DNA of 64,000 bases from a virus (taxonomy: Duplodnaviria; Heunggongvirae; Uroviricota; Caudoviricetes). The DNA lies in IMG/VR virus record IMGVR_UViG_2541047959_000009; one strand, written 5' to 3'. Below the pieces are notes generated by a model. It saw only the letters and a program-made list of their open reading frames with translations, had not been told where the DNA came from and searched no databases. The translations under genes and the position numbers were made by a program. Each line of letters starts with the position of its first letter. The stretch's first letter is position 1. Shown here one piece after another: positions 5,454-42,260 of the stretch.

Positions 5454-5969
5454 TCAGAGGCCGAGGGCGTTGCGGTGCGCTTCCATCAGGTCCACACCGT
5501 CCACAATTTCCACCATGTTGATAAGGTCCACTTCATAGAGCACCTCACCATTGATGGTCAGCTTCGCGTAGCTGTTGGTACTGGTCACTTTGGTGGTGTT
5601 GCTTTCGCCCGTCTTCCACTCGCCGGAATCCACTTCTTTGTGACGTCCACGCACGACAAGCTCCACGGCCTGCACTTCCCCGGTATCGTCACGCTGAATA
5701 GAGCCGGTAAAGCGCAGCTGGATGCCATCCACCGTGGCTTTACCCATCTGTTTAAACAGCAGCAATTCAGTACCACCAATGGAAAATTCTGTGTCCAGCG
5801 CACTGTCATCAAGCCCCAGATCCACATCCACCGCACCCGGCATTCCGCCGCCGCGATACTTCTCATATTTGCGGGTAAATTTCGGCAGCGTCAGCGACTC
5901 AACGATCCCCTGCCAGTTGTTCCCGTCGTTAAACAGGTTCAGGTGTTTTAATTTGCGTGGTAAAGCCAT
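5454..5969 (-). CDS. FII: tail tube protein FII
   Basis: 171-aa ORF, P2 FII-like, synteny. Confidence 0.85.
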   Translation of the reverse strand: MALPRKLKHLNLFNDGNNWQGIVESLTLPKFTRKYEKYRGGGMPGAVDVDLGLDDSALDTEFSIGGTELLLFKQMGKATVDGIQLRFTGSIQRDDTGEVQAVELVVRGRHKEVDSGEWKTGESNTTKVTSTNSYAKLTINGEVLYEVDLINMVEIVDGVDLMEAHRNALGL

Positions 5970-5978
5970 GTTGTCCCC

Positions 5979-7151
5979 TTACGCGCTGACCTGGCTGGCG
6001 AAATTCACCAGGTACTGATCGGTGATGCGCTGACGCAGCATCAGGTTTTCAAGTGGCGGCACTGGCGTGTAGTCGTAGTCGATGGTGAGTTTTCCGGCTT
6101 TCAGCGTGTCTTTGTCGTTCACCGACTCATCCAGCCAGCAATCACCACCAATGAGATAGCCCTGACTGACCAGGCTGCGCATTTTGGCGCGGATACCTTC
6201 GATAATGTCGCGGGCCAGCGACGGGTTAAGCGGTTTATCCACCGCCCACATGTGTGCTTCTGCCATCGTGTCCATCAGCACCTGCGCCGTGCGGGTGTAG
6301 TTTTCGAAGGCAAAGAGCGGGTCATCACTCAGGCAGCGGGAACCCCAGAAGCGGAAACCGTCTTTACGCACAAGCGTGGTGACGTCGTTCTGGTTCAGCA
6401 GACCTGCATCGGTTGCCGGGTCCTGCAGATCCCAGAACACATCTGCAGAAATTCCGGTGACACCGTTCACGCCCACGTTGGACAGGCTTTTGTGCCATCC
6501 GGTCTGCTCGTCAATTTTGGCGCGCAGACCAAGCGCACGGGCGGTGGCATATGCCGTTGCTTCGGCATTCAGCACCGTGTCCCAGCCAGTAAAGTCAGGC
6601 CAGATCAGCATCCCTTCGCGCTGGCTGAAGTTTTCACGGTAAGTGATCGCCTCCTGTATCGTCTTGCAGCCATACGCTGACAGGTAAGCAAACCCACGCA
6701 GGCTTTGCGCCACGCTCAGCAACTCAGTAGCTACCGCCTTGGTGTCGTGACCAGGTACACCCAGAATGCGCGGTTTAACGCCGAGCTGTGACTGGGCAGA
6801 TAACAGGGCTTTCATACCTGTTTTTTTACCTTCAGCAGTCACTGCGCCGATGATATTGGTCGTGGTTTCGTCTTCCGTTTCACCCTGCGGCACACGCACA
6901 ACAACGGTCACGGGTTTTGCCTGGTCAGCGATGGCATCCAGCGAACGGGCCAGCGTGCCGGACTCACCCGCTTTACCGCTGGCAGTCAGCACATCAGTGA
7001 TCAGTACGGGTTTATTAAGAGGAAACATTTTTGCATCGGCATCATCGCCCGTGCAGACCATGCCCACGATGGCGGTGCTCACCGTGGTAATGGATCGGGT
7101 GCCTTCGTTGACTTCAACAACGCGCACCCCGTGGTGGTAATCCTGAGCCAT
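5979..7151 (-). CDS. FI: tail sheath protein FI
   Basis: 390-aa ORF, P2 FI-like, synteny. Confidence 0.9.
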
Positions 7152-30446: not shown

Positions 30447-31079
30447 ATGTTAAACATCAGAATGGGTTCCGATACGGGAGGTAAGGCAGCTATTGAGAGG
30501 CTGCTTGAGGCTTATGGATTCACAACTAAGCAGGCATTAAGCGAGCACCTGAATGTCTCAAAAAGTACTATGGCAAACAGAGTGTTACGTGACAGTTTTC
30601 CTGCTGACTGGATAATTCAGTGTGCACTAGAAACCGGTGTTTCGTTACTTTGGTTAGCCACTGGACAGGGAAGCATGAAAGAAGGATACGAGTCTGAGAA
30701 AAGATCTCATAACGAGAACAAACAAGCAATTAAACCGTTATCCAAACTCATAACTCCATCTATTCCTAAAGGAACCTTGGAAAATGGACAACTCAGTATT
30801 GATGAAGAGATTTTCCTAGACCACAGCATATTACCTGCAGATTATGAAGAATCGATGTTCTTAGAAACCCCTACTGATTGTTATCTCATCGATAAATCAG
30901 TTAAACAAGTCAGCAATGGATTCTGGCTTATCAATATTGATGGAATGATTATTATTGCAAAAATCATGCGGATTCCCGGCAATAAGATTGTAGTAAATCA
31001 AGATGAAGCGTCTTTCGAGTGCTCTGCCGATGATGTGGAAGTTATTGGGCGTGCAGTCAAAGTAATAAAGAGTATCTAA
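30447..31079 (+). CDS. cI: 186-type CI-like immunity repressor
   Basis: 210-aa ORF with N-terminal HTH (TKQALSEHLNVSKSTMANR) plus C-terminal domain; directly upstream of int. Confidence 0.75.
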   Translation: MLNIRMGSDTGGKAAIERLLEAYGFTTKQALSEHLNVSKSTMANRVLRDSFPADWIIQCALETGVSLLWLATGQGSMKEGYESEKRSHNENKQAIKPLSKLITPSIPKGTLENGQLSIDEEIFLDHSILPADYEESMFLETPTDCYLIDKSVKQVSNGFWLINIDGMIIIAKIMRIPGNKIVVNQDEASFECSADDVEVIGRAVKVIKSI

Positions 31080-31081
31080 AC

Positions 31082-32101
31082 ATGACTGTCAGAAAACAGC
31101 CAAACGGTAAATGGTTGTGCGAGTGCTATCCCAATGGACGCAATGGCAAGCGCGTGCGTAAGCAATTTGCTACGAAAGGCGAAGCCATTGCTTTTGAAAG
31201 CTTCACAATGGAAGAAGTGAACAAAAAACCATGGCTGGGGGAAAAGGAAGATCGGCGACACCTATCAGAATTAATTGAGCAGTGGTATTCCCTGTATGGT
31301 CAAACACTCGCAGACCCCAAGCGCCTCATAGCGAAACTTAGAATTATCTGTAATGGTCTAGGCGATCCCATCGCTTCAGAACTGACAGCCGGTGACTTTA
31401 CGAAATACCGCGAAGCACGGTTAAAAGGTGAAGTACGAAATGAAGATGGCACGTTTATGTCGCCCGTTAAGCCCCGCACGGTAAACCTTGAACAGCGCAA
31501 TCTATCATCTGTTTTTGGTACACTGAAAAAGCTGGGCCACTGGTCAGCCCCCAACCCGCTTGCTGGGCTGCCAACATTTAAAATTGCTGAGAGTGAATTG
31601 GCGTTCCTGACCCCGGAAGAAATTAAACGTCTGCTGGATGCCTGCGCCGATTCTCAAAGCTCCAGCCTGCTTTTGATTGCAAAAATATGCCTGGCCACCG
31701 GCGCACGCTGGAGCGAAGCCGAAAACCTGCAGAGTCATCAGGTATCAAAATACCGTATCACTTATACCAAGACCAAAGGCAAGAAAAACCGAACTGTGCC
31801 TATTTCTAAGGATTTATATGAAGAACTGCCTAAGAATAGGGGGAAGTTATTCACCCCATGCAGAAAAGCCTTTGAGCGTGCAGTAAAGCGAGCCGGTTTA
31901 GAACTACCAGAAGGCCAATGTACCCATGTTCTGCGCCATACATTTGCCAGTCATTTTATGATGAACGGTGGAAATATACTGGTACTGCGCGATATTCTTG
32001 GACATGCCGATATAAAAATGACGATGATTTACGCTCATTTTTCCCCAGATCATCTTGAAGATGCAGTAACTAAAAACCCATTAGCAACCTTGATGGATTA
32101 A
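31082..32101 (+). CDS. int: tyrosine integrase
   Basis: 339-aa ORF; C-terminal catalytic region HVLRHTFAS...MIYAH (R, H-x-x-R, Y). Confidence 0.9.
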   Translation: MTVRKQPNGKWLCECYPNGRNGKRVRKQFATKGEAIAFESFTMEEVNKKPWLGEKEDRRHLSELIEQWYSLYGQTLADPKRLIAKLRIICNGLGDPIASELTAGDFTKYREARLKGEVRNEDGTFMSPVKPRTVNLEQRNLSSVFGTLKKLGHWSAPNPLAGLPTFKIAESELAFLTPEEIKRLLDACADSQSSSLLLIAKICLATGARWSEAENLQSHQVSKYRITYTKTKGKKNRTVPISKDLYEELPKNRGKLFTPCRKAFERAVKRAGLELPEGQCTHVLRHTFASHFMMNGGNILVLRDILGHADIKMTMIYAHFSPDHLEDAVTKNPLATLMD

Positions 32102-32105
32102 GCAC

Positions 32106-33329
32106 ATGCGCAACATTATCGAATTAGAACAGATATCGGAAGAACTAAAAAAACATGAACTATTGCAACCCCCATTCATTGCCGAGGGAAAACTAATTTC
32201 TGACTTTTCTAAGAGAGTCGAGTGCTATTTAGAATTAATTGACTCCATTAGAAATAAATATCCTGACAACGAGATAATTAAACAAGTAAAGATTCGCACA
32301 AAATCAATAATATATTTATCTGATAAAATAATAGAAACTCTTAAGCTATTTTTAATAGGAAATGTTAAAGAAGCTTATAAAAAATTCGATTTGGCAATTA
32401 CCAAGTCATCAATGCATACTCATCTTTATAAGATGACTGTTCCTCTAACTAAATTATGCAACCCACACACCCCTTTATTTCGCGTAAGGAAAAGTGAGTG
32501 CATCCTAAAACAAAGAGAAGAATTATTTCATATACCATTTAAAAATAGACATTTAGTTAGCGCACAAAGATTTTCTGTATCCGGTCTTCCATGTTTATAT
32601 CTTGGAACATCAATATTTGTATGTTGGCAAGAAATGGGAAAACCTGACTTTGATAAACTTTACATATCTTCCTTCATATCCGATAAAGAAAATTCAAATA
32701 TAAGAATTTTAGATCTTGGGTACAATTTAACATCTGCACTTCGTACAAAACCGGGAGATCTTTGGTATTCATTCGAACAAGGTTCAGATGATGATTACGA
32801 TCTAAATAATGATAATTTCATGGATCAAATTAATGATAAAATTTCAAAGTTGATTGCATGGCCTTTAGTCCTTGCATGTAACTATACAAAAGATAATGAA
32901 AACGCAAGTTTTAATAAAGAATACATAATACCAAACCTATTAATGCAATGGATTAGTAGTGACAGAAACAAAAATATATCAGGGATATCGTATCGATCAA
33001 CAAAGATATTAAACCAAAAAGATAGCGATATTGGGATTAATGTAATTATCCCCCCAAAAATAGAAAACATAGTTGAAACCAATGATACCCACTGTCCTGT
33101 TTTAAAAAAAATATTTAGAGTTACAAACCCTGTTTCCTGGACTGTGTTTAGTACACTAGAAGCCACCCCCTATCTATACAAAAATAATTTTAATTTTTCG
33201 ACCTATAATCCCGCAAAAGGATGGATTGAAGACTTTGATGAATCCCTTGTTGAACATTATGAAAATACCACTTTTAGAAAAGTTGAACTCCTTATTCATC
33301 AAATGATGAAGTATGAATATTTAAAATAA
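32106..33329 (+). CDS. RES-domain protein (candidate NAD-targeting toxin/abortive-infection effector), 407 aa
   Basis: AT-rich ORF starting 4 nt after int stop; RES-like signature AQRFSVSGLPCLYLGTSIFVCWQE. Confidence 0.6.
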   Translation: MRNIIELEQISEELKKHELLQPPFIAEGKLISDFSKRVECYLELIDSIRNKYPDNEIIKQVKIRTKSIIYLSDKIIETLKLFLIGNVKEAYKKFDLAITKSSMHTHLYKMTVPLTKLCNPHTPLFRVRKSECILKQREELFHIPFKNRHLVSAQRFSVSGLPCLYLGTSIFVCWQEMGKPDFDKLYISSFISDKENSNIRILDLGYNLTSALRTKPGDLWYSFEQGSDDDYDLNNDNFMDQINDKISKLIAWPLVLACNYTKDNENASFNKEYIIPNLLMQWISSDRNKNISGISYRSTKILNQKDSDIGINVIIPPKIENIVETNDTHCPVLKKIFRVTNPVSWTVFSTLEATPYLYKNNFNFSTYNPAKGWIEDFDESLVEHYENTTFRKVELLIHQMMKYEYLK

Positions 33330-33445: not shown

Positions 33446-33490
33446 ATGTAGGAATTTCGGACGCGGGTTCAACTCCCGCCAGCTCCACCA
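33446..33490 (+). other. attachment-site core: 45-nt copy of ssrA (tmRNA) 3' end
   Basis: ATGTAGGAATTTCGGACGCGGGTTCAACTCCCGCCAGCTCCACCA matches the enterobacterial tmRNA 3' terminus; upstream sequence is not tmRNA. Confidence 0.85.
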
Positions 33491-33618
33491 ATCATGATTG
33501 GACGGTGTAAGGACAACACCAACAAAAACAGGAAGTTAGAAGTCTCAGCAGGACACCGACCAGACGGTGAGGAGACATAAAAGGATACGCAAAGGAGCCG
33601 CGGCTCCGAAGTGAAATG

Positions 33619-33646
33619 AAAGCCCGCTGATGCGGGCTTTTTTGCT
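33619..33646 (+). terminator. rho-independent terminator
   Basis: Stem AAGCCCGC/GCGGGCTT followed by TTTTT. Confidence 0.6.
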
Positions 33647-33875
33647 TCTTCTCTTTAGCCTGATTCGACACTCTCAATGCGGCCATAAACAACAACCCAC
33701 TTTTCTTATACCGTAGCCTGTCCCCCTCTTCCTGCTTTCTAACCATAACAGATGTGAGCGTTTGCTATGAGCGATATATAGTCATTCGTACCCTCCGATA
33801 CTAATCATCACAGAAATTAATATATTCATTCCTTACTGAAAAGCTATGAAGTAGATATATAGGATTGGGGCGCGT

Positions 33876-34073
33876 ATGGCACTGGACAGTTATGCATCTC
33901 CGAATATTATTCCGGAGCTAAGACAACCGAATGCCGCAGCAGGTAAGATCACGCTAGGGGGGCTGGACAGAATGGCTGTTACGCCCAGTGTGAAGAAAAG
34001 AAGGCTAAGTATGGTAGAATTTCCATACGCACAGACCTTGTTATCCGACTATACAGCCTGGAAGGCACTATGA
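33876..34073 (+). CDS. hypothetical small ORF overlapping start of downstream gene (ATGA)
   Basis: 65-aa ORF, 4-nt overlap suggests translational coupling. Confidence 0.3.
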   Translation: MALDSYASPNIIPELRQPNAAAGKITLGGLDRMAVTPSVKKRRLSMVEFPYAQTLLSDYTAWKAL

Positions 34074-34858
34074 CAAATCTACAACTGGAAGAAAGATTTA
34101 GGGCGCTTGAGAAAGATTACGATGCGCTCATTTCCACAAAATATACTGCGCAGAACGTTCTCACTCACACTATGGAAACCTATGTTGATTCTGGTAAATA
34201 TAAAAACTGGATCGCCAGAGTGAAAAAGTTAATAGAGGACAGCTACGGAAAAGAGTCTGATTATTACAATGACTTCAATACTGTAAACAGCAGGTGGTCT
34301 TCTAATTACAATACACTGATCAAAAGTTATAAACCGTTGTTTGATGCGGCGAGAGATGATCTTGCGCACTCTGCTGTCAGTACTAATACTCCTCAAGAAG
34401 GTTCGCCGCTGAGCCTCGTACTTAATATTCTTAACAGGTTTCCGACCTTTGTTCGCCAGTTAAAGAGGCGGTACAACGGCCGTGCGCCGCTTGAAGTTAA
34501 TGATGAGTATGACGTACAGGATTTGATTTATGCACTGCTGACGCTTCATTTTAATGATATTAGGGCGGAAGAGTATACCCCCAGCTTTGCGGGCGCGGCC
34601 TCAAGACAGGACTTTCTTTTGAAAAAAGAGAAAATTGTGATAGAGGTGAAGAAAACCCGTGAATCTCTGGGAGCGGGTAAAGTTGGTGGAGAGTTGCTTA
34701 TTGATATGGCGCGCTACCGCGCTCACCAAGACTGCGATACGTTGATCTTGTTTGTATATGACCCGGATTGCTACATAAATAATCCTTTGGGCGTGAAAAC
34801 CGATCTGGAATCTAAAGACGCGGAAGGAAAAGTGAAGGTTGTTATTGCGCAGTTCTGA
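34070..34858 (+). CDS. hypothetical protein with C-terminal PD-(D/E)xK-like nuclease motif
   Basis: 262-aa AT-rich ORF; ...RQDFLLKKEKIVIEVKKT... D-x(n)-EVK pattern. Confidence 0.6.
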   Translation: MTNLQLEERFRALEKDYDALISTKYTAQNVLTHTMETYVDSGKYKNWIARVKKLIEDSYGKESDYYNDFNTVNSRWSSNYNTLIKSYKPLFDAARDDLAHSAVSTNTPQEGSPLSLVLNILNRFPTFVRQLKRRYNGRAPLEVNDEYDVQDLIYALLTLHFNDIRAEEYTPSFAGAASRQDFLLKKEKIVIEVKKTRESLGAGKVGGELLIDMARYRAHQDCDTLILFVYDPDCYINNPLGVKTDLESKDAEGKVKVVIAQF

Positions 34859-34945
34859 CACGCTTAAGTGTCACCTTACAGGATTAGGTTTGCGGCCGTG
34901 CCAGCAGGACGAGCATGAAAAAGGCCGCTGGCACGGCCGGATTTG

Positions 34946-35239
34946 TCATCTTTGCCAGGTCAAATCAAAATCTACGTGAAAATCCGCAGGCTTAAGCTCG
35001 CAACTGCCACCACGCCCAATTAACGACGTTATGTTTACAACGTTTGAACCTGTTGAGATGGCAAGTTGAGTGTCATCTGTAAACGTGATGATTAGCATTT
35101 CAGTCTGATGAACCTGTACTCCAGTTTTCTGAAAACCAATCTGGACAGATTTCACCGTTTTCCCAACCATTTCACGGGCTTGATTGATAGAGTAATTAGC
35201 TTCAACTTGTAGGTCATTCCTGAACTTGGGTAGTGTCAT
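34946..35239 (-). CDS. hypothetical protein
   Basis: 97-aa ORF downstream of GIY-YIG gene on same strand. Confidence 0.4.
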   Translation of the reverse strand: MTLPKFRNDLQVEANYSINQAREMVGKTVKSVQIGFQKTGVQVHQTEMLIITFTDDTQLAISTGSNVVNITSLIGRGGSCELKPADFHVDFDLTWQR

Positions 35240-35449
35240 TTTACATCCTCTTTAGTGAAGTTTTCGCTATTTAAATCAGCAGCATTCCTTTTAAATCACT
35301 GGCATGTCAGCAGTGGATAGTCTGAGTGTAACGTCCAGTGAGGGGAATAAATATTGGTCAGACTTTGCACAAAAGAGCCAACTATCGCGGGCTCTCTCTC
35401 ATCATGTGCGAAAATTGACCACAATATGAAATCCAGTTCCATTCCGAAA

Positions 35450-36274
<825 letters not shown>

Positions 36275-36389
36275 TCAATTGACAACTTATAATCCCTACT
36301 AGTTAGCATTATGATTTCCAGAGTGAGGAATATAAAAATCTCTGTTTCTGGCACATAACAGCCCTTAAGATCGTAGCTCGCCATCATGG

Positions 36390-36430
36390 GGTGTCGGGGG
36401 GCGGAGGTTCAAATCCTCTCGTGCCGACCA
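36390..36430 (+). other. tRNA 3'-end-like fragment (T-arm, acceptor 3' strand, CCA), tRNA-Pro-like
   Basis: GGAGGTTCAAATCCTCTCGTGCCGACCA; no complete cloverleaf could be folded upstream. Confidence 0.4.
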
Positions 36431-36444
36431 AAAATCCCTTAAGA

Positions 36445-36470
36445 ACCAGCCTATTATGGCTGGTTTTTTT
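36445..36470 (+). terminator. rho-independent terminator after tRNA-like fragment
   Basis: Stem ACCAGCC/GGCTGGT followed by TTTTTTT. Confidence 0.65.
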
Positions 36471-36612
36471 ATGATTGTTTTTTATGCGGAGAAATACCGG
36501 GGAATAATTGGGGTAAAACACCTTTAGGCTATTCACTTAGCCTACCACCATCAAAATCTTTCCGAATGTATCCATCTCTTTTTTCTTATGCAGCTAAAAC
36601 GAAGTCTTGATA

Positions 36613-36628
36613 CTGTTTATTTACACAG
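36613..36628 (+). promoter_or_regulatory. LexA (SOS) box CTGT-N8-ACAG
   Basis: CTGTTTATTTACACAG ~44 bp upstream of DinI-like remnant. Confidence 0.5.
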
Positions 36629-36671
36629 ATAAGAATAATACTGTCTACAAACGCAGTACAAAAGAAGTGTT

Positions 36672-36850
36672 ATGCGTATTGAGATCTCCATAGCCAAAGA
36701 CAAAATGACCAAATGCCAAACGGCGCTGTGGACGCGTTAAAGGAAGAATTAACCCAACACATTGGCAAGCGTTATGACGATGTGGAGATGATCGTAAAAG
36801 CCACCAGCAACGATAGTTTTTCAGTTAGACATACTGCAGATAAAGATTGA
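36672..36850 (+). pseudogene. DinI-like gene remnant (frameshifted, truncated)
   Basis: [12 protein letters not shown]... then in another frame [35 protein letters not shown], DinI-like. Confidence 0.5.
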
Positions 36851-37214
36851 GCTAAAACTTTCGTTCAGGAAACTCTGAATGATACCTGAGAGTCTACTGA
36901 AGAGTTGTTTGTTCACTAGTTAGCACGTAGGAAATCATTCAATACTCGCACTATCGGAAGTTCACCAGCCAGTCGTAGCACGTCCTTGCAAACGACGTGC
37001 CTACGGTTTCAATCACCTCTCACCATCAATTCTATCAATAATAATTAAACAGCGCCTAGACAAAATAAATAACAACAAGTCAACAACCTCGACAGGATGC
37101 CGATGGGATGATGAAGAGATAAGAAAGAATAACCAGTAAAGCCCTAAAACGTCAGCGTTCAGACGCGTTTTTTACTTAATCGGTAACAAATACGTTGTAT
37201 CATAGCAAAATAAA

Positions 37215-39164
37215 ATGATTGTTCTAAATCAGATTAACTCCTCACTTTTGTACAATGTCGCTTACAGGTATACCATGAAATCCGAGACGCTAACTGTCCA
37301 ACAACTTTTTCAAGACCGCCGACAATACTGTGTTCCATTCTATCAACGTGCCTATGTATGGACTCAGCAAGACCAGTGGTCAGCTCTACTGGAGGATATC
37401 CTAGAGAAAGTACAATCCCGGCTCTCGGGTACAAAACCAACTCCCCATTTCCTTGGTGCGGTTGTACTGGAACCTCAATCAAAAAAAGGATTATTAGGTG
37501 TAGATTCCATACATATTATTGATGGTCAGCAACGATTGACCACTCTTCAATATGTTCTGGCATCCATCCGATTAGCATTACGTGCTACGGATCTTTCCAG
37601 CTTAGAGGCTCTCATTTCGCCTTGCCTGAAAAACTCAAACGAAGACACAATGCGAAATAAAGAAGTAGAACGCTTCAAACTGTGGCCAACTTTTCGGGAT
37701 CAAACTCATTTTATTCAAAGTTTTAATGTTGAAAATATTGACGATCTCCGGGACGTATTCTCTGATAGTTTCACGCAGCATGGTACGTTGCGTAAGCATT
37801 TTAATCACCCGCCATCACTAGAAGCATTATGTTTTTTTACTGAAGCCTTTATAAAATGGATTAAAATAGAAAACCACTCACCACAAGAAAATGCTGTAGC
37901 TCTAATTGAGGCTGTCTTAACAGATCTGAAACTGGTAAGCATATTTCTCGAAGCTGAAGATGATGCCCAAATAATTTTTGAAACATTAAATGGGCGAGGG
38001 GCGGAACTTCATGCTACGGATCTTATTCGCAACTATATCTTTATGTGCGCTGAGCATGAAAATATTAATGCTATTGAATTATATGAAAATGAGTGGAAGA
38101 GCTTTGAAGATAAATACTGGTCGGAAAAACAACGCCGTGGACGTATTAATAAACCACGCATGGAGTGGCTAGTACATGCGACATTGCAATCAGAAAGGCA
38201 ACGTGAAATTGATCTGTCTCGCCTTTACAATGAGTATCGTGATTATGTAAGTAAGGACTTGTCTTCACAACGAGCAGATCTGCAAGTAAAGCGCCTCAAA
38301 CAATATGCATCACAATATAAAGAATTGGTTGATGGTTTTGGCACAACCCCCATCTCACACTTTGGATATCGCATCGCAGACTATGATGTGACGACACTTT
38401 ATCCGCTTGCTTTGTTCATTTCGATAGCTAACATCGCTGATGATGAGAAAGCAGCCATGTATAATGATCTTGTCTCCTACGTAGTACGAAGAGCCGTATG
38501 TGGCCTGACGCCAAAGAATTACAACAATGTATTTATGAATGTATTGCGGCACTTGGCTAAAACGGAAATTTCCAGTGTTGAGTTACGTAATATCCTCAAT
38601 AACTTAAATGGCGAAGCCTCACGTTGGCCTGGTGACTCAGAATTTCTCAACGCTTGCATCAATGCTCCACTTTATCCTGGCAGGCTCGACGCACCGAAAA
38701 TGCGCTCAATGTTAACGGAACTTGAAAGAGAACTTTGTCGCCAAGTAAAGACAGAAAAGCCTGATGTTCCAAATCTTTCTAATCTCGATATCGATCATCT
38801 TATGCCTCAAAGTTGGTATTCCTGTTGGCCTCTCGAAAATGGTCGTATGGTGACAAATTCAGATGCTACGGTATTGAACCAAATTGTTCTGTCTGGAACC
38901 GATCTTACCCCTGAACAGCTACTGGTAAGGAAACGGCAACAAGCGATATCTACTTTGGGAAATCTAACTTTGCTTAACCTTAGCGTAAACCGTTCTGTTC
39001 AGAATGCTGTATTTCTGAAAAAACGTGATGCTCTCATCGTCCACACCAATCTACGACTGAACATTCCACTTATAGTTAAGGATAAATGGGATGAGGATGA
39101 AATCCTGGAGCGGGGTAAAAAGTTGGGGGAAATTGCATTGAAAGTATGGCCAAAACACGATTAA
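37215..39164 (+). CDS. GmrSD-family putative type IV restriction endonuclease (DUF262 + DUF1524/HNH-like)
   Basis: 649-aa AT-rich ORF; N-terminal PFYQRAYVW and IIDGQQR (DUF262/ParB-like), C-terminal DIDHLMPQSW (His-Me finger). Confidence 0.8.
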   Translation: MIVLNQINSSLLYNVAYRYTMKSETLTVQQLFQDRRQYCVPFYQRAYVWTQQDQWSALLEDILEKVQSRLSGTKPTPHFLGAVVLEPQSKKGLLGVDSIHIIDGQQRLTTLQYVLASIRLALRATDLSSLEALISPCLKNSNEDTMRNKEVERFKLWPTFRDQTHFIQSFNVENIDDLRDVFSDSFTQHGTLRKHFNHPPSLEALCFFTEAFIKWIKIENHSPQENAVALIEAVLTDLKLVSIFLEAEDDAQIIFETLNGRGAELHATDLIRNYIFMCAEHENINAIELYENEWKSFEDKYWSEKQRRGRINKPRMEWLVHATLQSERQREIDLSRLYNEYRDYVSKDLSSQRADLQVKRLKQYASQYKELVDGFGTTPISHFGYRIADYDVTTLYPLALFISIANIADDEKAAMYNDLVSYVVRRAVCGLTPKNYNNVFMNVLRHLAKTEISSVELRNILNNLNGEASRWPGDSEFLNACINAPLYPGRLDAPKMRSMLTELERELCRQVKTEKPDVPNLSNLDIDHLMPQSWYSCWPLENGRMVTNSDATVLNQIVLSGTDLTPEQLLVRKRQQAISTLGNLTLLNLSVNRSVQNAVFLKKRDALIVHTNLRLNIPLIVKDKWDEDEILERGKKLGEIALKVWPKHD

Positions 39165-39188
39165 TGCAATTAATAAAATGATTATAGT

Positions 39189-39208
39189 GGCCTTACATTA
39201 GTAAGGCC
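39189..39208 (+). terminator. hairpin downstream of GmrSD-like gene
   Basis: 8-bp stem GGCCTTAC/GTAAGGCC, weak U-run. Confidence 0.35.
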
Positions 39209-39414
39209 GCTACTCACTATTAAATACTTTAATTTGCATCAAGAACAGCAGTGTCAGCCCTAGGTCTCGGACTTTGTACCGCTTATCTTGTCTTCAAAAA
39301 TCAGCTCGCATCCTGCACAGTTCAGCGCATTACGTTGTAGATCTGTGTTCTGGTCATTTGTTGACACACGTACATAGCCAATAAGCATGGTAGATCTCCC
39401 TGACAAAAGCAGGA

Positions 39415-39711
39415 ATGATGCCATTTGCTCGTTATTTCTGCATTTTCATAAACGTTGGTTTGGGAGAAGGCGCTGCATGGCCTGTGGGCGTCGCTGATAA
39501 ACAGACCCCAGACACATCGCTCAGGACGGGTCTGAGATGCAACGGAACGGCTGTGATTGGTGAACCTTACCGGGAAATCATTCAGACTGATCCGGTAAGT
39601 ATAAGGCGCGAATTGCCTATGAATGGAATGACTGACAGTGCTGATGGGCGCGGAGGTGATAATAGGCGTTCTGTGGTCTCAGCACCATTGCCAACTGTAT
39701 TTACTATTTAG
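39415..39711 (+). pseudogene. 5'-truncated copy of tail-fibre constant-region 3' end, reading into left inverted repeat
   Basis: NVGLGEG..VGV.D.Q...CNG...YRE...SAPLPTVFTI* parallels C-terminus of fibre gene 41127-41672. Confidence 0.5.
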
Positions 39712-39715
39712 GTGC
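39691..39715. repeat. left inverted repeat of tail-fibre switching cassette
   Basis: CCAACTGTATTTACTATTTAGGTGC; inverted copy at 41124-41148 with 1 mismatch. Confidence 0.75.
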
Positions 39716-39909
39716 TGGTAGCTATCCTCTTGGGATCTTCGAGAGGTTCAGGTGCTATATTCAGTAATATAGTAGGGTCAGGCGCAACCGGGGTTAGCAT
39801 TACCGTCGCCGTCAGTAGGAATAATACCGTTGTGGGCACAGTGGCCGTACCACTGATTGCAACCTGTCCTTCCAATACCAGAGTCTCCGCTATAGTGATA
39901 GCACGGTAA
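39712..39909 (+). CDS. alternative tail-fibre C-terminal segment (no ATG; GTG immediately after TAG in repeat)
   Basis: 65 codons homologous to segment 40950-41126 (..S.R.SG..F..I.GS.AT.V...VA.R.NNTV...TV....I.TCP...RV). Confidence 0.45.
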   Translation: MLVAILLGSSRGSGAIFSNIVGSGATGVSITVAVSRNNTVVGTVAVPLIATCPSNTRVSAIVIAR

Positions 39910-40253
39910 TGATGAAAGCAGTATTCTATACAGGACGAAGTGCAACAAATGATCGGCAAGATATGGTTCAAGAATATGATGGTGAGAGAACGCTACCTGA
40001 TGACACTTTAGAAATTTACATTGACATAGGTGAGCGAATCCCTGGACAGTCCTCACAAGGTAAAGCAAGTGTAGCTGAGGCTGCAGAAGCGCCCGGTTGT
40101 ATTGAGTATTCACATCCATCGGAAGAGGTTCAGGAGCTGCCGGGTGAAATCGACAAAATATCTTTGACTTCAGAATTAAATCAAAACACAGCAACCCATG
40201 ATTGGCCCGGAAATGCTACTACTGGTCGTCTAATAGGCCCGTACCATGCGTAA
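39909..40253 (+). CDS. tail fibre assembly protein (variant 1)
   Basis: 114-aa ORF; C-terminal EEVQELPGEIDKISLTSE...HDWPG shared with 40603-40929. Confidence 0.6.
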   Translation: MMKAVFYTGRSATNDRQDMVQEYDGERTLPDDTLEIYIDIGERIPGQSSQGKASVAEAAEAPGCIEYSHPSEEVQELPGEIDKISLTSELNQNTATHDWPGNATTGRLIGPYHA

Positions 40254-40602
40254 GATGATTCGTGGCGGGAGTACCATAACGAGCTGGAGCTGGGCGACGC
40301 TTCATACGCGGCAGATGCTCAGTGTCAGACACCTACGGATGTTGAGACCGGTTGCCACGGGGCGCTTTAGCTGAAATTGCAGCCCGCACCGAATCTAAGG
40401 AATGCAGCAAAAACCCAACCTGAGGCGTTGCTGGCTGAATTAGATTCGGTCCGGGCTACAATTACCACCAAATCGCACGATTTCAAGTCGTCTGAGCTGC
40501 CATCGGCGTCGGACGTTGTATTTCTGCCGCGTAGAATGTGTCGCCCTGTTCCAGTGCGGTCACGGTCTCCAACCTCGCACTATACTACTTCACTTCCTCG
40601 GT

Positions 40603-40929
40603 TTATAGGCCAATAATAGCTGTTTTTTCGGGCCAATGACGCGGATTGGTGTTGGTATTGGCTTCTCCAGTTAAGGATATTTTGATGATTTCAGCCCTCA
40701 ACTCCTGAACCTCTTCCCATGGGTTTGGGTACTTAGACCAACATGTCGCTCCACACGCGTCAGCTCTACCTGCTTCATCTTGACGGGGAAGTGCCGGGAT
40801 TCCATCATAAATGTCTCTATATACACTTGTAACAGAAACAGATACCCTAGCTTCACCATCATATTTTTGAACCGAATTATCCCGTGACATAGTATTAATA
40901 ACGGGACTAATTAATATTGAGTTATTCAT
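40603..40929 (-). CDS. tail fibre assembly protein (variant 2)
   Basis: ORF 40603-40968 trimmed to MNNSILIS Met; paralogous C-terminus to 39909-40253. Confidence 0.6.
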   Translation of the reverse strand: MNNSILISPVINTMSRDNSVQKYDGEARVSVSVTSVYRDIYDGIPALPRQDEAGRADACGATCWSKYPNPWEEVQELRAEIIKISLTGEANTNTNPRHWPEKTAIIGL

Positions 40930-40949
40930 TACGGTCCTATCATGAAATA

Positions 40950-41126
40950 TTAAACTCTGATATCGCATGGACAGGTATCGATCGGTGTTTCGTCGACTGT
41001 GAACGAAACCGTATTATTCTTCCTGTCAGCGACAAAAGAATTAACCGCGGTCGCGTATGAACCTGCAATATCAGTAAATTCACCACCTGAGGCTCTCGTA
41101 GATACCGGGGGGATAACTCGCTGCAC
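40950..41126 (-). CDS. tail-fibre C-terminal segment in frame with fibre gene but separated by TAG in the inverted repeat
   Basis: 58 codons VQRVIPPVSTRASGGEF...TCPCDIRV, homologous to 39712-39909. Confidence 0.45.
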   Translation of the reverse strand: MQRVIPPVSTRASGGEFTDIAGSYATAVNSFVADRKNNTVSFTVDETPIDTCPCDIRV

Positions 41127-41148
41127 CTAAAAAGTAAATACAGTTGGC
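41124..41148. repeat. right inverted repeat of tail-fibre switching cassette
   Basis: Reverse complement CCAACTGTATTTACTTTTTAGGTGC. Confidence 0.75.
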
Positions 41149-41672
41149 TCTTGGGCTGAGACAACCTCAGGCTTTTTATAACCGGTGAGGCCATCAGCCT
41201 TGCCAGTAATACCCTTACCAGCCACTGGGGCGATTTTACTTGCCGGAACAACCTTTGTCATTTCCCGGTAATGTTCAGCAAACAAAAACGCTCCATTGCA
41301 ACTAATCAAGGTTGAGGGAGGTATATCAGAAGGTTGGGTATCAGGGACGCCCACAGTTCGTGCAGAGCCTTCTCCCAAACCAAGGTTTTCGAGAGCCGTT
41401 TTCACCGTGCCGTCCGATTTGATATCGCTAAACGGATTCTTGCGGCTTAACAGCAGCGCACGAAGCGCGGTAAGCAGCTGGTCGTGCCGCGCCTTCTCCA
41501 GACTGGCACCGGATGCCTCCACCACGCTGCAGAGTTCTTCCTGCAACATGTCAAAGTAGTCATCATCCAGATCGGTGGCAGGCGTGCCTGTCTGGGGGTT
41601 ACCACGGGTAAAACCGTTCTTACCCGCGCCGAACTTATCCTTCTGCGCGGTTTTCGTGTCTATACGATGCAT
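41127..41672 (-). CDS. tail fibre protein, conserved N-terminal (constant) part
   Basis: 181-aa [24 protein letters not shown]...LQEEL, typical side-tail-fibre N-terminus. Confidence 0.8.
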
Positions 41673-41675
41673 GGA

Positions 41676-42260
41676 TTACTCCGGATATTTAAAAATTACG
41701 TAGGTATGCGAAGGGCAGAGTTTGTTAAGCACACATTCGACGACGGTGTCGCCCCAGATACGCAGCGCGGAATCACAGGGATCGCCACATGTCATCCAGG
41801 TGCTGTTGGTGGCGGCTGGCATGTTGACCTGCCAGTAATACCGCCATTCCGGCGCATTCACCGCGTCAGTACAGGCCGATGAGCAGGTGAACGTGCTTTT
41901 GTCGTATCGCGTGATGGTGGCGTCTGGTCTGCCCAGGGCAGCAAGCTGTGCAAGGTAAAAATCCTCATTGATGCCGCCCGCCAGGTTAACCTTCGCATCC
42001 AGTCGTTGCTGACGCTGGCGAAGGGTCTGTGTTCCTGCGGGAATACATTCATCCGGCAGGCCGCACAGACGCTCCCAGCGATTTATCAGTTCGGTGGTGG
42101 TGCGCGGATCCAGCTCCCGCATCAGGGCATCCGCACGCTGATGAACGCGGGTTAATGACTGTGCCGCACCGGCAATCGCCGGATCGCTGGCTGACCACGC
42201 CGGACCGGGCGGCAGCAGTGCCGACAACAGACGGATGTAATCATCGTTTGTCACGCCCAT
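41676..42260 (-). CDS. Mu gp48-like tail/baseplate protein
   Basis: 194-aa ORF, position between baseplate J-like gene and fibre. Confidence 0.7.

What the first reader, a model, noticed from the sequence alone, without database searches (positions are those of the whole stretch)
37215..39164. GmrSD-type putative type IV restriction gene at the position where e14-like prophages carry pin-mcrA
Seen: a 649-aa AT-rich ORF combining DUF262 motifs (PFYQRAYVW, IIDGQQR) with a C-terminal DUF1524/His-Me finger (DIDHLMPQSW), lying just outside the tail-fibre switching cassette of prophage 2. Established knowledge: the DUF262+DUF1524 fusion defines GmrSD-family modification-dependent restriction enzymes; in E. 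coli e14 the equivalent position holds the invertase pinE and the type IV enzyme McrA. Inference: a defence gene swap at a conserved prophage-end locus, with the invertase lost.
Basis: partly seen in the sequence, partly recalled or inferred. Interest (0 to 1): 0.55.

Follow-up and report, generated by a model that had tools for sequence, protein, structure and literature searches.

The report
Known GmrSD restriction enzyme in prophage

Summary
The ORF at 37215-39164 (+) exists and carries full-length GmrSD_N (DUF262) and GmrSD_C (DUF1524) domains. From Met21 (37275) its 629 aa are 629/629 identical to UTI89_C2960, the published "UT" GmrSD enzyme. That enzyme restricts T2, T6 and RB69 but not T4, and is insensitive to IPI*. 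About 300 of 5,426 complete E. coli genomes carry the same cassette.

The e14 comparison holds. Prophage 2 has an e14-type tail end, and the gene sits just beyond pin, where K-12 e14 has mcrA. The invertase is truncated, not absent: 41 codons identical to PinE remain (39388-39266, -). A 2.26-kb AT-rich cassette (37010-39266) replaced pin codons 42-184. An 80-nt anchor bounds it on the left; in a relative that anchor abuts the stop codon of an intact pinE. Sampled relatives carry McrA, CMoRE/PD-T4-3, retron Ec67, Ppl or unknown genes near this slot.

Two by-products:
- A second characterised type IV enzyme, CMoRE, lies about 1 kb to the left.
- The "switching cassette" (39450-41388) is a per-base mosaic of both orientations of the UTI89 segment, most likely a consensus artefact. 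Both orientations also occur among genomes with the truncated pin, so inversion probably continues in trans.

Novelty: already known.

The parts
37275..39164 (+). GmrSD coding sequence, 629 aa. The longest ORF starts 60 nt earlier, at 37215.
   Evidence: ORF. Pfam GmrSD_N plus GmrSD_C. PADLOC mREase_IV PDLC03655, 1415 bits, aa 21-649. 629/629 identical to UTI89 WP_000834402.1.
37521..37535 (+). DGQQR motif (D83-R87) of the N-terminal DUF262 domain. Its role as an NTPase motif rests on family knowledge.
   Evidence: Sequence position, inside the Pfam GmrSD_N match.
38793..38840 (+). His-Me/HNH catalytic residues D507-H508 (38793-38798) and N522 (38838-38840).
   Evidence: Same residue numbers as the D507A, H508A and N522A inactive mutants of Eco94GmrSD. 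Positions.
37010..39266 (+). The acquired AT-rich GmrSD cassette (2.26 kb, GC 0.404). It comprises 265 nt upstream, the gene, and 102 nt downstream with a perfect 8-bp hairpin at 39189-39208.
   Evidence: Homology to prophages with intact pin stops at 37009 on the left and resumes at 39267 on the right; in one locus (L007) weaker similarity begins at 39243. GC. Hairpin read.
36930..37009 (.). 80-nt conserved anchor segment, annotated elsewhere as a 'capsid protein' pseudogene fragment. It marks the outer edge of the cargo slot.
   Evidence: 84-89% identical to L005 5490-5568, where it abuts the pinE stop codon, and to L004 4471-4549, where CMoRE lies between it and pinE. It recurs in many genomes.
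39260..39388 (-). pin' : truncated Pin-family invertase gene (42 codons plus stop). The first 41 codons are identical to K-12 PinE, and 143 codons are missing.
   Evidence: Alignment 41/41. tblastn of PinE finds only this fragment in the window. Annotated in UTI89 as 'recombinase family protein, incomplete, missing C-terminus'.
39450..39499 (.). Left arm of the inverted repeat, holding the pix-like crossover site AAACGTTGGTTTGGGAGAAGG.
   Evidence: Inverted repeat I1, 50 nt, 88% complementary to 41339-41388.
41339..41388 (.). Right arm of the inverted repeat, inside the tail-fibre gene.
39450..41388 (.). Invertible tail-fibre/tfa segment. As written in this window it is a per-base mosaic of the two orientations of the UTI89 segment, so its ORFs are not real.
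   Evidence: 699 positions match only the forward orientation, 662 only the inverted one, 578 match where the two agree, and 0 match neither. The runs test is consistent with random choice, z = 1.41. Gapless protein alignments contain in-frame stops.
35450..36223 (-). CMoRE / PD-T4-3, a GIY-YIG type IV restriction endonuclease specific for 5hmC and 5ghmC DNA. It is a second characterised anti-T-even nuclease in the same cargo region.
   Evidence: PADLOC PD-T4-3, E 9.9e-136. 256/257 identical to PDB 9U7U, APEC O1 CMoRE. Function from PMC12923530.
34070..34858 (+). 262-aa protein with a C-terminal REase_DpnII-MboI (PD-(D/E)XK) domain. It is further cargo of unknown role.
   Evidence: Pfam PF18742, E 9.5e-49. 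PADLOC Aga_Helical-REase, E 1e-26.
36373..36889 (+). Relic of a proL-type prophage end: the 3' part of tRNA-Pro with its terminator (about 36373-36472) and a frameshifted DinI-like pseudogene (about 36672-36889).
   Evidence: Sequence. No intact tRNA in the window. Nearly all E. coli genomes match 36373-36472 at their tRNA-Pro gene, and strain Ec-050-T5-ESBL has yejM, an intact tRNA-Pro and then dinI' at a prophage end. The DinI-like pseudogene is annotated in UTI89.
33446..33643 (+). The last 45 nt of ssrA plus about 150 nt downstream. This is the att repeat that marks the left end of the ssrA-integrated element holding the cargo region and prophage 2, and the right end of the P2-like prophage 1.
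   Evidence: Matches L006 3391-3589 (ssrA 3' end) at 94%, and a second copy beyond the integrase at the far end of the UTI89 element, L003 28133-28314, at 90%.

Best explanation
[quoted passage not shown] It is a prophage-borne phage-exclusion gene. The N-terminal DUF262 domain (DGQQR motif) supplies the NTP-dependent function, and the C-terminal DUF1524 His-Me/HNH domain (D507-H508-N522) cleaves incoming DNA that carries glycosylated hydroxymethylcytosine. Unmodified host and prophage DNA is spared. For this allele the reported spectrum is T2, T6 and RB69 but not T4, and it is insensitive to the T4 inhibitor IPI*. The gene lies in the variable cargo interval between the attachment site (here the 3' end of ssrA) and the pin invertase, at the tail-fibre end of an e14-family prophage. 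A 2.26-kb AT-rich cassette recombined in between an 80-nt conserved anchor and pin codon 41, deleting pin codons 42-184.

Shown here: the domains, the sequence identity, the cassette boundaries, the synteny and the diversity of cargo at this end. Taken from the literature: the enzymatic activity and the phage spectrum. Inferred: expression from the lysogen, and the order of evolutionary events.
For: Pfam finds both domains over their full profile length. PADLOC mREase_IV scores 1415 bits over the whole 629 aa. The protein is 629/629 identical to UTI89 WP_000834402.1. He et al. 2015 (PMC4437046) describe UTI89_C2960 as a fused single-chain GmrSD that is insensitive to IPI*, restricts T2 and T6 but not T4, and probably lies on a prophage; they place the Eco94 gene immediately downstream of tail-fibre genes and APECO1_3911 next to a tail-fibre gene. 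The 93%-identical Eco94GmrSD shows NTP-stimulated cleavage of T4 DNA, abolished by D507A, H508A and N522A. Thomas et al. 2018 (PMC6024577) report that the UTI89 enzyme restricts RB69 but not T4 or DDY1. The catalytic residues sit at the same numbers here. The locus is colinear with UTI89 and identical to it outside the invertible segment apart from 1 nt. e14 has pinE followed by mcrA at the equivalent end. The cassette with both junctions is present in 300 of 5,426 complete E. coli genomes.
Against: Nothing in the sequence shows that the gene is expressed from the lysogen. The simple promoter scan found no convincing sigma-70 site directly upstream of either start codon, and the total number of promoter-like sites in the region was near the shuffled expectation. 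The start codon (37215 or 37275) is not settled by conservation. NCBIfam has no model that matches. The phage spectrum comes from cloned genes, as reported in papers I read only in part. No sequenced phage in the 50,697-record collection carries a close homologue (best 24-28% identity), so mobility of this prophage as an active phage is undocumented.
Confidence: 0.93

Rival explanations
1. The gene is a silent relic. It is intact but not expressed, or not active, in the lysogen, and is carried along passively with a decaying prophage end.
For: Its neighbours include decay products: a truncated pin, a frameshifted dinI-like gene and a tRNA-Pro fragment. No clear promoter was found.
Against: The ORF is intact and 100% identical at protein level across many ST95-type genomes. 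Alleles of 92-96% DNA identity also keep the reading frame. The identical protein is reported active when cloned.
Confidence: 0.08
2. It is the nuclease component of a larger multi-gene system, like BrxU inside BREX or SspE with SspABCD, rather than a stand-alone type IV enzyme.
For: PADLOC also gives weaker matches to SspE and to 'Orf5'/HEC-06 models that contain DUF262. GmrSD homologues are embedded in BREX loci in other strains.
Against: The best model by far is the stand-alone mREase_IV (1415 bits, against at most 262 bits for any other). The neighbours are a single-gene GIY-YIG enzyme, pseudogenes and tail-fibre genes, with no BREX, Ssp or Dnd genes. The family works as a single cloned gene.
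Confidence: 0.03
3. The gene replaced mcrA specifically, in a one-for-one exchange of type IV enzymes in an e14 ancestor.
For: It lies in the same position relative to pin and the tail-fibre segment. e14 gene names are used for the neighbours, and the pin remnant is 41/41 identical to PinE.
Against: No mcrA-derived or icd-derived sequence flanks the cassette: the e14 locus L002 matches the window only from 39267 rightwards. The orientation is opposite to that of mcrA. The left flank is the 80-nt anchor seen in relatives with an empty slot or with CMoRE, not in e14. The slot holds many different cargos in relatives. This fits independent insertion into a generic cargo slot better.
Confidence: 0.05

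Closest known systems
EcoUTI89GmrSD (UTI89_C2960, WP_000834402.1), the 'UT enzyme'
   Same: Identical 629-aa sequence. The locus is the same and identical at DNA level from ssrA' to the invertible segment apart from 1 nt.
   Different: Nothing in the protein. In this window a P2-like prophage is additionally inserted at ssrA to the left, as in strains S88 and MS7163.
Eco94GmrSD (ECSTEC94C_1402) and EcoCT596 GmrSD
   Same: Same family and architecture, 629 aa, 93% identity to the UT enzyme according to He et al. 2015. They share the D507-H508-N522 catalytic site and are prophage-borne next to tail-fibre genes.
   Different: The phage spectrum and inhibitor sensitivity differ. The CT596 and Eco94 enzymes act on T4 lacking IPI and are countered by IPI*. 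The UT allele is IPI*-insensitive and does not restrict T4.
McrA of K-12 cryptic prophage e14
   Same: A type IV modification-dependent nuclease in the HNH/His-Me superfamily, encoded just beyond pin at the tail-fibre end of an e14-type prophage.
   Different: A different family: it matches PADLOC PDLC03656, not PDLC03655, and has no DUF262 or DUF1524 domain. It is co-directional with an intact pinE and next to the icd attachment site.
CMoRE / PD-T4-3 (GIY-YIG type IV enzyme)
   Same: A single-gene nuclease aimed at the hmC or ghmC DNA of T-even phages. In relatives it occupies the same anchor-to-pin slot (L004, L008), and it is also present about 1 kb away in this window.
   Different: An unrelated fold (GIY-YIG). 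In the relatives that carry it in the slot, pinE stays intact.
BrxU (GmrSD homologue within BREX) and SspE
   Same: They share the DUF262 domain, and BrxU is a GmrSD-family enzyme that restricts T-even phages.
   Different: They are distant in sequence. PADLOC SspE models match only the N-terminal part of this protein, at 58 bits or less, and the only solved structure found by sequence is 9jfl at E 3.5e-8. They are embedded in multi-gene systems, whereas this gene stands alone.

Membership tests
GmrSD type IV restriction endonucleases | N-terminal DUF262 (GmrSD_N) domain with the DGQQR motif | tested here: met
   Pfam PF03235, E 7.2e-34, full profile. DGQQR at aa 83-87.
GmrSD type IV restriction endonucleases | C-terminal DUF1524 (GmrSD_C) His-Me/HNH domain with the DH...N catalytic residues | tested here: met
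   Pfam PF07510, E 3.8e-20. D507, H508 and N522 are present at the positions whose mutation inactivates Eco94GmrSD.
GmrSD type IV restriction endonucleases | Both domains fused in one polypeptide of about 600-650 aa | tested here: met
   A single ORF, 629 or 649 aa.
GmrSD type IV restriction endonucleases | NTP-stimulated cleavage of hmC or glycosyl-hmC DNA but not unmodified DNA, and restriction of T-even phages | not testable with these tools
   Follows from 100% identity to the UT enzyme and published assays on it and on the 93% homologue.
e14-type 'pin plus type IV enzyme' prophage end | e14-type tail end: ymfQ, a tail-fibre gene crossing a pix-type inverted repeat, and an invertible tfa segment | tested here: met
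   Annotation of the identical UTI89 locus. K-12 e14 layout. Inverted repeat. 96% DNA identity to e14 over 41368-41800.
e14-type 'pin plus type IV enzyme' prophage end | Intact Pin invertase next to the segment | tested here: not met
   Only codons 1-41 remain.
e14-type 'pin plus type IV enzyme' prophage end | Type IV nuclease gene immediately beyond pin, between pin and the attachment site | tested here: met
   GmrSD ends 96 nt from the stop of pin' and lies between pin' and the ssrA att repeat. Its orientation is opposite to that of mcrA.
e14-type 'pin plus type IV enzyme' prophage end | Integration in icd | tested here: not met
   The element is flanked by ssrA 3'-end repeats.
McrA family | McrA-type sequence (PADLOC PDLC03656) | tested here: not met
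   K-12 McrA hits PDLC03656 at 6.5e-203. The window protein's best model is PDLC03655, and no McrA model appears among its 25 listed hits.

The most novel reading that the evidence does not exclude
The interval between the attachment site and pin in e14-family prophages is an exchange slot, bounded by the 80-nt anchor and the pin gene, that preferentially collects modification-dependent (type IV) nucleases: McrA, CMoRE and GmrSD. In this lineage two of them (CMoRE and GmrSD) plus a DpnII/MboI-like nuclease-domain protein are stacked as complementary layers against T-even phages. Cargo entry can clip pin without disabling tail-fibre switching, because a Pin paralogue elsewhere in the genome acts in trans.
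Probability: 0.35. Interest if true: 0.4.

Novelty: already known. Interest (0 to 1): 0.15.

Why it matters
For the finding as given, very little. The enzyme, its activity and its prophage position beside tail-fibre genes are all published. Three practical points follow.

1. The exact allele matters for any assay.
2. This lineage carries two characterised type IV nucleases against hmC/ghmC DNA about 1 kb apart, GmrSD and CMoRE. The CMoRE paper's main text mentions neither GmrSD nor prophages. The pairing bears on how T-even phages and their internal-protein inhibitors are counter-selected.
3. The tail-fibre "switching cassette" sequence in this window should not be used for gene calling, because it is a blend of both orientations.

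Tried and rejected
- ARAGORN on the whole window found no tRNA or tmRNA. The tRNA-like stretch at 36373-36430 is therefore a 3' fragment of tRNA-Pro. I first considered it the att site of prophage 2. I rejected that because the element is flanked by ssrA repeats. The fragment plus dinI' matches the end of proL-integrated prophages in other strains.
- NCBIfam gave no hit for GmrSD or its neighbours.
- A protein search of 50,697 phage records found only distant homologues (23-28% identity over alignments covering 40% or more of the query), so no sequenced free phage carries this gene.
- I first tried to read the ORFs inside 39415-41672 as real tail-fibre and tfa genes with conserved in-frame stops. 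I rejected this once every position proved to match one or the other orientation of the UTI89 segment.
- I looked for a second pin-type invertase in the window to explain trans inversion and found none. I could not scan the rest of the source genome.
- Conservation of the upstream ATG (37215) in a 96% allele did not settle the start codon.
- The simple promoter scan gave nothing above the shuffled expectation.
- I ran no structure prediction, fold search or large protein-database search, because the identity to a characterised enzyme made them unnecessary.
Full report
**Observation.** The ORF 37215..39164 (+) of 649 aa is real. It contains the quoted motifs: PFYQRAYVW at nt 37335-37361, DGQQR at 37521-37535 and DIDHLMPQSW at 38787-38816. 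Pfam finds GmrSD_N (PF03235, formerly DUF262; aa 28-276, E 7.2e-34) and GmrSD_C (PF07510, formerly DUF1524; aa 471-639, E 3.8e-20), each over the whole profile. The gene has GC 0.412. Prophage 2 from 41389 to the window end has GC 0.535, and the whole window 0.507.

The likely product is 629 aa, starting at ATG 37275. The PADLOC profile aligns aa 21-649 to positions 1-629 of 629. RefSeq annotates the same start in UTI89, and the expressed homologue is 629 aa. An AGGT lies 5 nt upstream of 37275. The upstream ATG is conserved in a 96% allele, so the start is not proven.

**What it is.** From 37275 the protein is 629/629 identical to UTI89 WP_000834402.1. The PADLOC model mREase_IV PDLC03655 scores 1415 bits.
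- He et al. 2015 (PMC4437046) name this protein UTI89_C2960, EcoUTI89GmrSD or the "UT enzyme". They describe it as a fused single-chain GmrSD that is insensitive to the T4 inhibitor IPI*. It does not restrict T4 with or without IPI, but it restricts other T-even phages such as T2 and T6.
- Thomas et al. 2018 (PMC6024577) add that it restricts RB69 but not T4 or DDY1.
- The 93%-identical Eco94GmrSD shows NTP-stimulated cleavage of T4 DNA. Its D507A, H508A and N522A variants are inactive. The same residues stand at the same numbers here.
- He et al. also report that the Eco94 gene lies immediately downstream of prophage tail-fibre genes, and that the UTI89 and APEC O1 genes are likely prophage-borne too.

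The gene, its function and its general location are thus already known. A segment spanning the cassette and both junctions (36900-39400) is at least 80% covered in 300 of 5,426 complete E. coli genomes, in alleles of about 100%, 96% and 92% DNA identity. No record in the phage collection has a close homologue.

**Surroundings.** Window 33446-41800 is colinear with UTI89. Outside the invertible segment it is identical apart from 1 nt. From left to right the order is:
1. The end of a P2-like prophage: CI repressor 30447-31079, integrase 31082-32101, and an AT-rich 407-aa cargo gene 32106-33329.
2. The last 45 nt of ssrA plus about 150 nt downstream (33446-33643).
3. A 262-aa protein with a REase_DpnII-MboI domain (34070-34858), then a 97-aa ORF.
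4. A GIY-YIG gene (35450-36223, -).
5. A tRNA-Pro 3' fragment with its terminator and a frameshifted dinI-like gene (36373-36889).
6. An 80-nt conserved segment (36930-37009).
7. GmrSD.
8. A pin remnant (39388..39260, -).
9. The invertible tail-fibre segment (39450-41388), followed by ymfQ and the baseplate genes.

In UTI89 a second copy of the ssrA-end repeat lies beyond the integrase, about 43 kb away (L003 28133-28314). The whole stretch, GmrSD included, therefore sits inside an ssrA-integrated element.

**The e14 comparison.** K-12 e14 reads ymfQ, stfP, tfaP, then tfaE and stfE' on the other strand, then pinE, mcrA and icdC. The window has the same tail end. Its pin remnant is 41/41 identical to PinE residues 1-41 and then stops. 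Homology to relatives with an intact pinE begins at window 39267 (39243 in one case). On the other side, the 80-nt segment 36930-37009 matches the sequence that directly abuts the pinE stop codon in strain ACN002, which has an empty slot. In strains 23CRST031 and OW1E2 the same segment lies just outside a cargo gene inserted next to pinE. A 2.26-kb cassette (37010-39266, GC 0.404) has therefore replaced pin codons 42-184. No mcrA or icd sequence flanks the cassette. GmrSD is convergent with pin', whereas mcrA is co-directional with pinE. The position is equivalent, but a literal mcrA-for-GmrSD exchange is not indicated.

**A variable slot rich in defence genes.** I sampled related prophage ends. 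These are the genes between pin and the chromosome; some lie directly beyond pin and others further out.
- McrA in K-12 e14 (PADLOC 6.5e-203).
- CMoRE/PD-T4-3 in strains 137, 23CRST031 and OW1E2. In 23CRST031 a retron Ec67 RT-Toprim gene lies further out.
- A 165-aa hypothetical protein next to pinE in ACN002, with a Ppl gene further out (5.1e-157).
- Hypothetical proteins with no PADLOC hit in NWU_1 and PM06121, which are also at ssrA.
- Other hypotheticals in a different myovirus prophage family, in F11 and A1_136. A1_136 shows an independent 3' truncation of pin next to a different cargo gene.

The sample is small and not a census.

**A second type IV enzyme next door.** The GIY-YIG ORF at 35450-36223 (-) matches PADLOC PD-T4-3 at 9.9e-136. 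It is 256/257 identical to PDB 9U7U, the APEC O1 CMoRE. CMoRE was shown in 2026 to be a type IV endonuclease specific for 5hmC and 5ghmC DNA (PMC12923530). This lineage therefore carries two characterised nucleases against T-even modified DNA about 1 kb apart. The main text of that paper mentions neither GmrSD nor prophages.

**The switching cassette in this window is not a real sequence.** All differences from UTI89 except the 1 nt noted above fall within 39450-41388, at a uniform level of about 35%. UTI89 cassette proteins align to the window without gaps but across in-frame stops. I compared each of the 1,939 positions with the UTI89 base in the forward orientation and with the base expected if the segment were inverted:
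- 699 positions match only the forward orientation.
- 662 match only the inverted orientation.
- 578 match where the two orientations agree.
- None matches neither.

The choice between orientations along the segment is statistically random: 707 runs against 681 expected, z = 1.41. The probability that all 1,361 informative positions match one or the other by chance is about 10^-410. The simplest reading is a consensus or polishing artefact from a culture holding both orientations at roughly 1:1.

Independent support comes from complete genomes with the same GmrSD-pin' junction. Of these, 79 have the UTI89 orientation and 25 (including IHE3034 and PMV-1) the opposite one, at 99.9-100% identity. 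Inversion has therefore continued after pin was truncated, presumably through a Pin paralogue acting in trans. There is none in the window. Trans inversion of the e14 segment by PinQ is documented (PMC12529663). "Invertase lost" is thus true only in cis, and the switch is probably still live.

**Mechanism.** The domains and catalytic residues are shown here. By identity with the published enzyme, the product recognises glycosylated hmC DNA and cleaves it through the C-terminal His-Me site, with NTP-dependent stimulation linked to the N-terminal domain, and so excludes a subset of T-even phages. Constitutive expression from the prophage is inferred. The promoter scan was uninformative.

**Verdict.** The finding is correct in substance but already known. 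The proposed T4 assay would give a false negative for this allele. Interest is low. The by-products (the CMoRE neighbour, the anchor-bounded cargo slot and the mosaic artefact that reveals trans inversion) are modest leads.

Noticed in passing
window 39450-41388: The invertible tail-fibre segment is a per-base mosaic of the UTI89 segment in both orientations: 699 positions match only the forward orientation, 662 only the inverted one, 578 match where both agree, and 0 match neither. The choice along the segment is random. This is most likely a consensus artefact from a mixed-orientation culture. The ORFs called in 39415-41672, with their in-frame stops, are not real.
   Followed up: yes
window 39260-41388, with E. 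coli complete genomes: Among complete genomes that share the truncated-pin junction, 79 have one orientation of the segment and 25 the other. Inversion therefore continues without a cis invertase. No second pin gene lies in the window, so the trans-acting enzyme is unidentified.
   Followed up: partly
window 35450-36223 (-): This GIY-YIG gene is 256/257 identical to APEC O1 CMoRE (PD-T4-3, PDB 9U7U), a characterised type IV nuclease specific for 5hmC and 5ghmC DNA. It lies about 1 kb from GmrSD. In relatives a 75%-identical copy sits directly in the anchor-to-pinE slot.
   Followed up: yes
window 34070-34858 (+) and 34946-35239 (-): The 262-aa protein has a C-terminal REase_DpnII-MboI domain (Pfam 9.5e-49) and also resembles the pAgo-associated 'Aga_Helical-REase' effectors. 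No methyltransferase was seen among the adjacent genes (the 97-aa ORF next to it has no family hit, and the UTI89 annotation of this stretch lists none). This may be a further single-gene defence candidate.
   Followed up: partly
window 32106-33329 (+): A very AT-rich (GC about 0.30-0.33) 407-aa gene lies directly after the integrase of the P2-like prophage 1. It has no Pfam, PADLOC or NCBIfam hit, only PHROG 7835 of unknown function (4.8e-180). In strain BEN5202 the annotation of the matching stretch lists a GapS1 family protein instead, although the alignment there covers only 80% in three pieces. It is a candidate uncharacterised cargo or defence gene.
   Followed up: partly
window 36373-36889: The 3' part of tRNA-Pro with its terminator, followed by a frameshifted dinI-like gene. 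It matches the end of prophages integrated at proL (yejM, tRNA-Pro, then dinI' in strain Ec-050-T5-ESBL). It looks like a relic of another prophage end recombined into this cargo region.
   Followed up: yes
window 33446-33643, and UTI89 L003 28133-28314: The last 45 nt of ssrA plus about 150 nt downstream recur beyond the integrase in UTI89 (90% identity, with a 5-nt deletion in the CCA end). They delimit an element of about 43 kb at ssrA. In this window a P2-like prophage is inserted in tandem at the same site. The intact ssrA lies outside the window.
   Followed up: partly
L013 (E. coli A1_136) 5856-6122: An independent case of a pin gene truncated at its 3' end (89 codons left), next to a different 281-aa cargo gene, in another myovirus-type prophage family. 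Cargo turnover at this end appears to clip pin repeatedly.
   Followed up: no
window 36930-37009: An 80-nt segment conserved at 84-94% at the outer edge of the pin-adjacent slot in many E. coli prophages at different integration sites. PGAP annotates it as a 'capsid protein' pseudogene fragment. It contains a GCACGTC...GACGTGC hairpin. It may be a recombination anchor or the pin terminator.
   Followed up: partly
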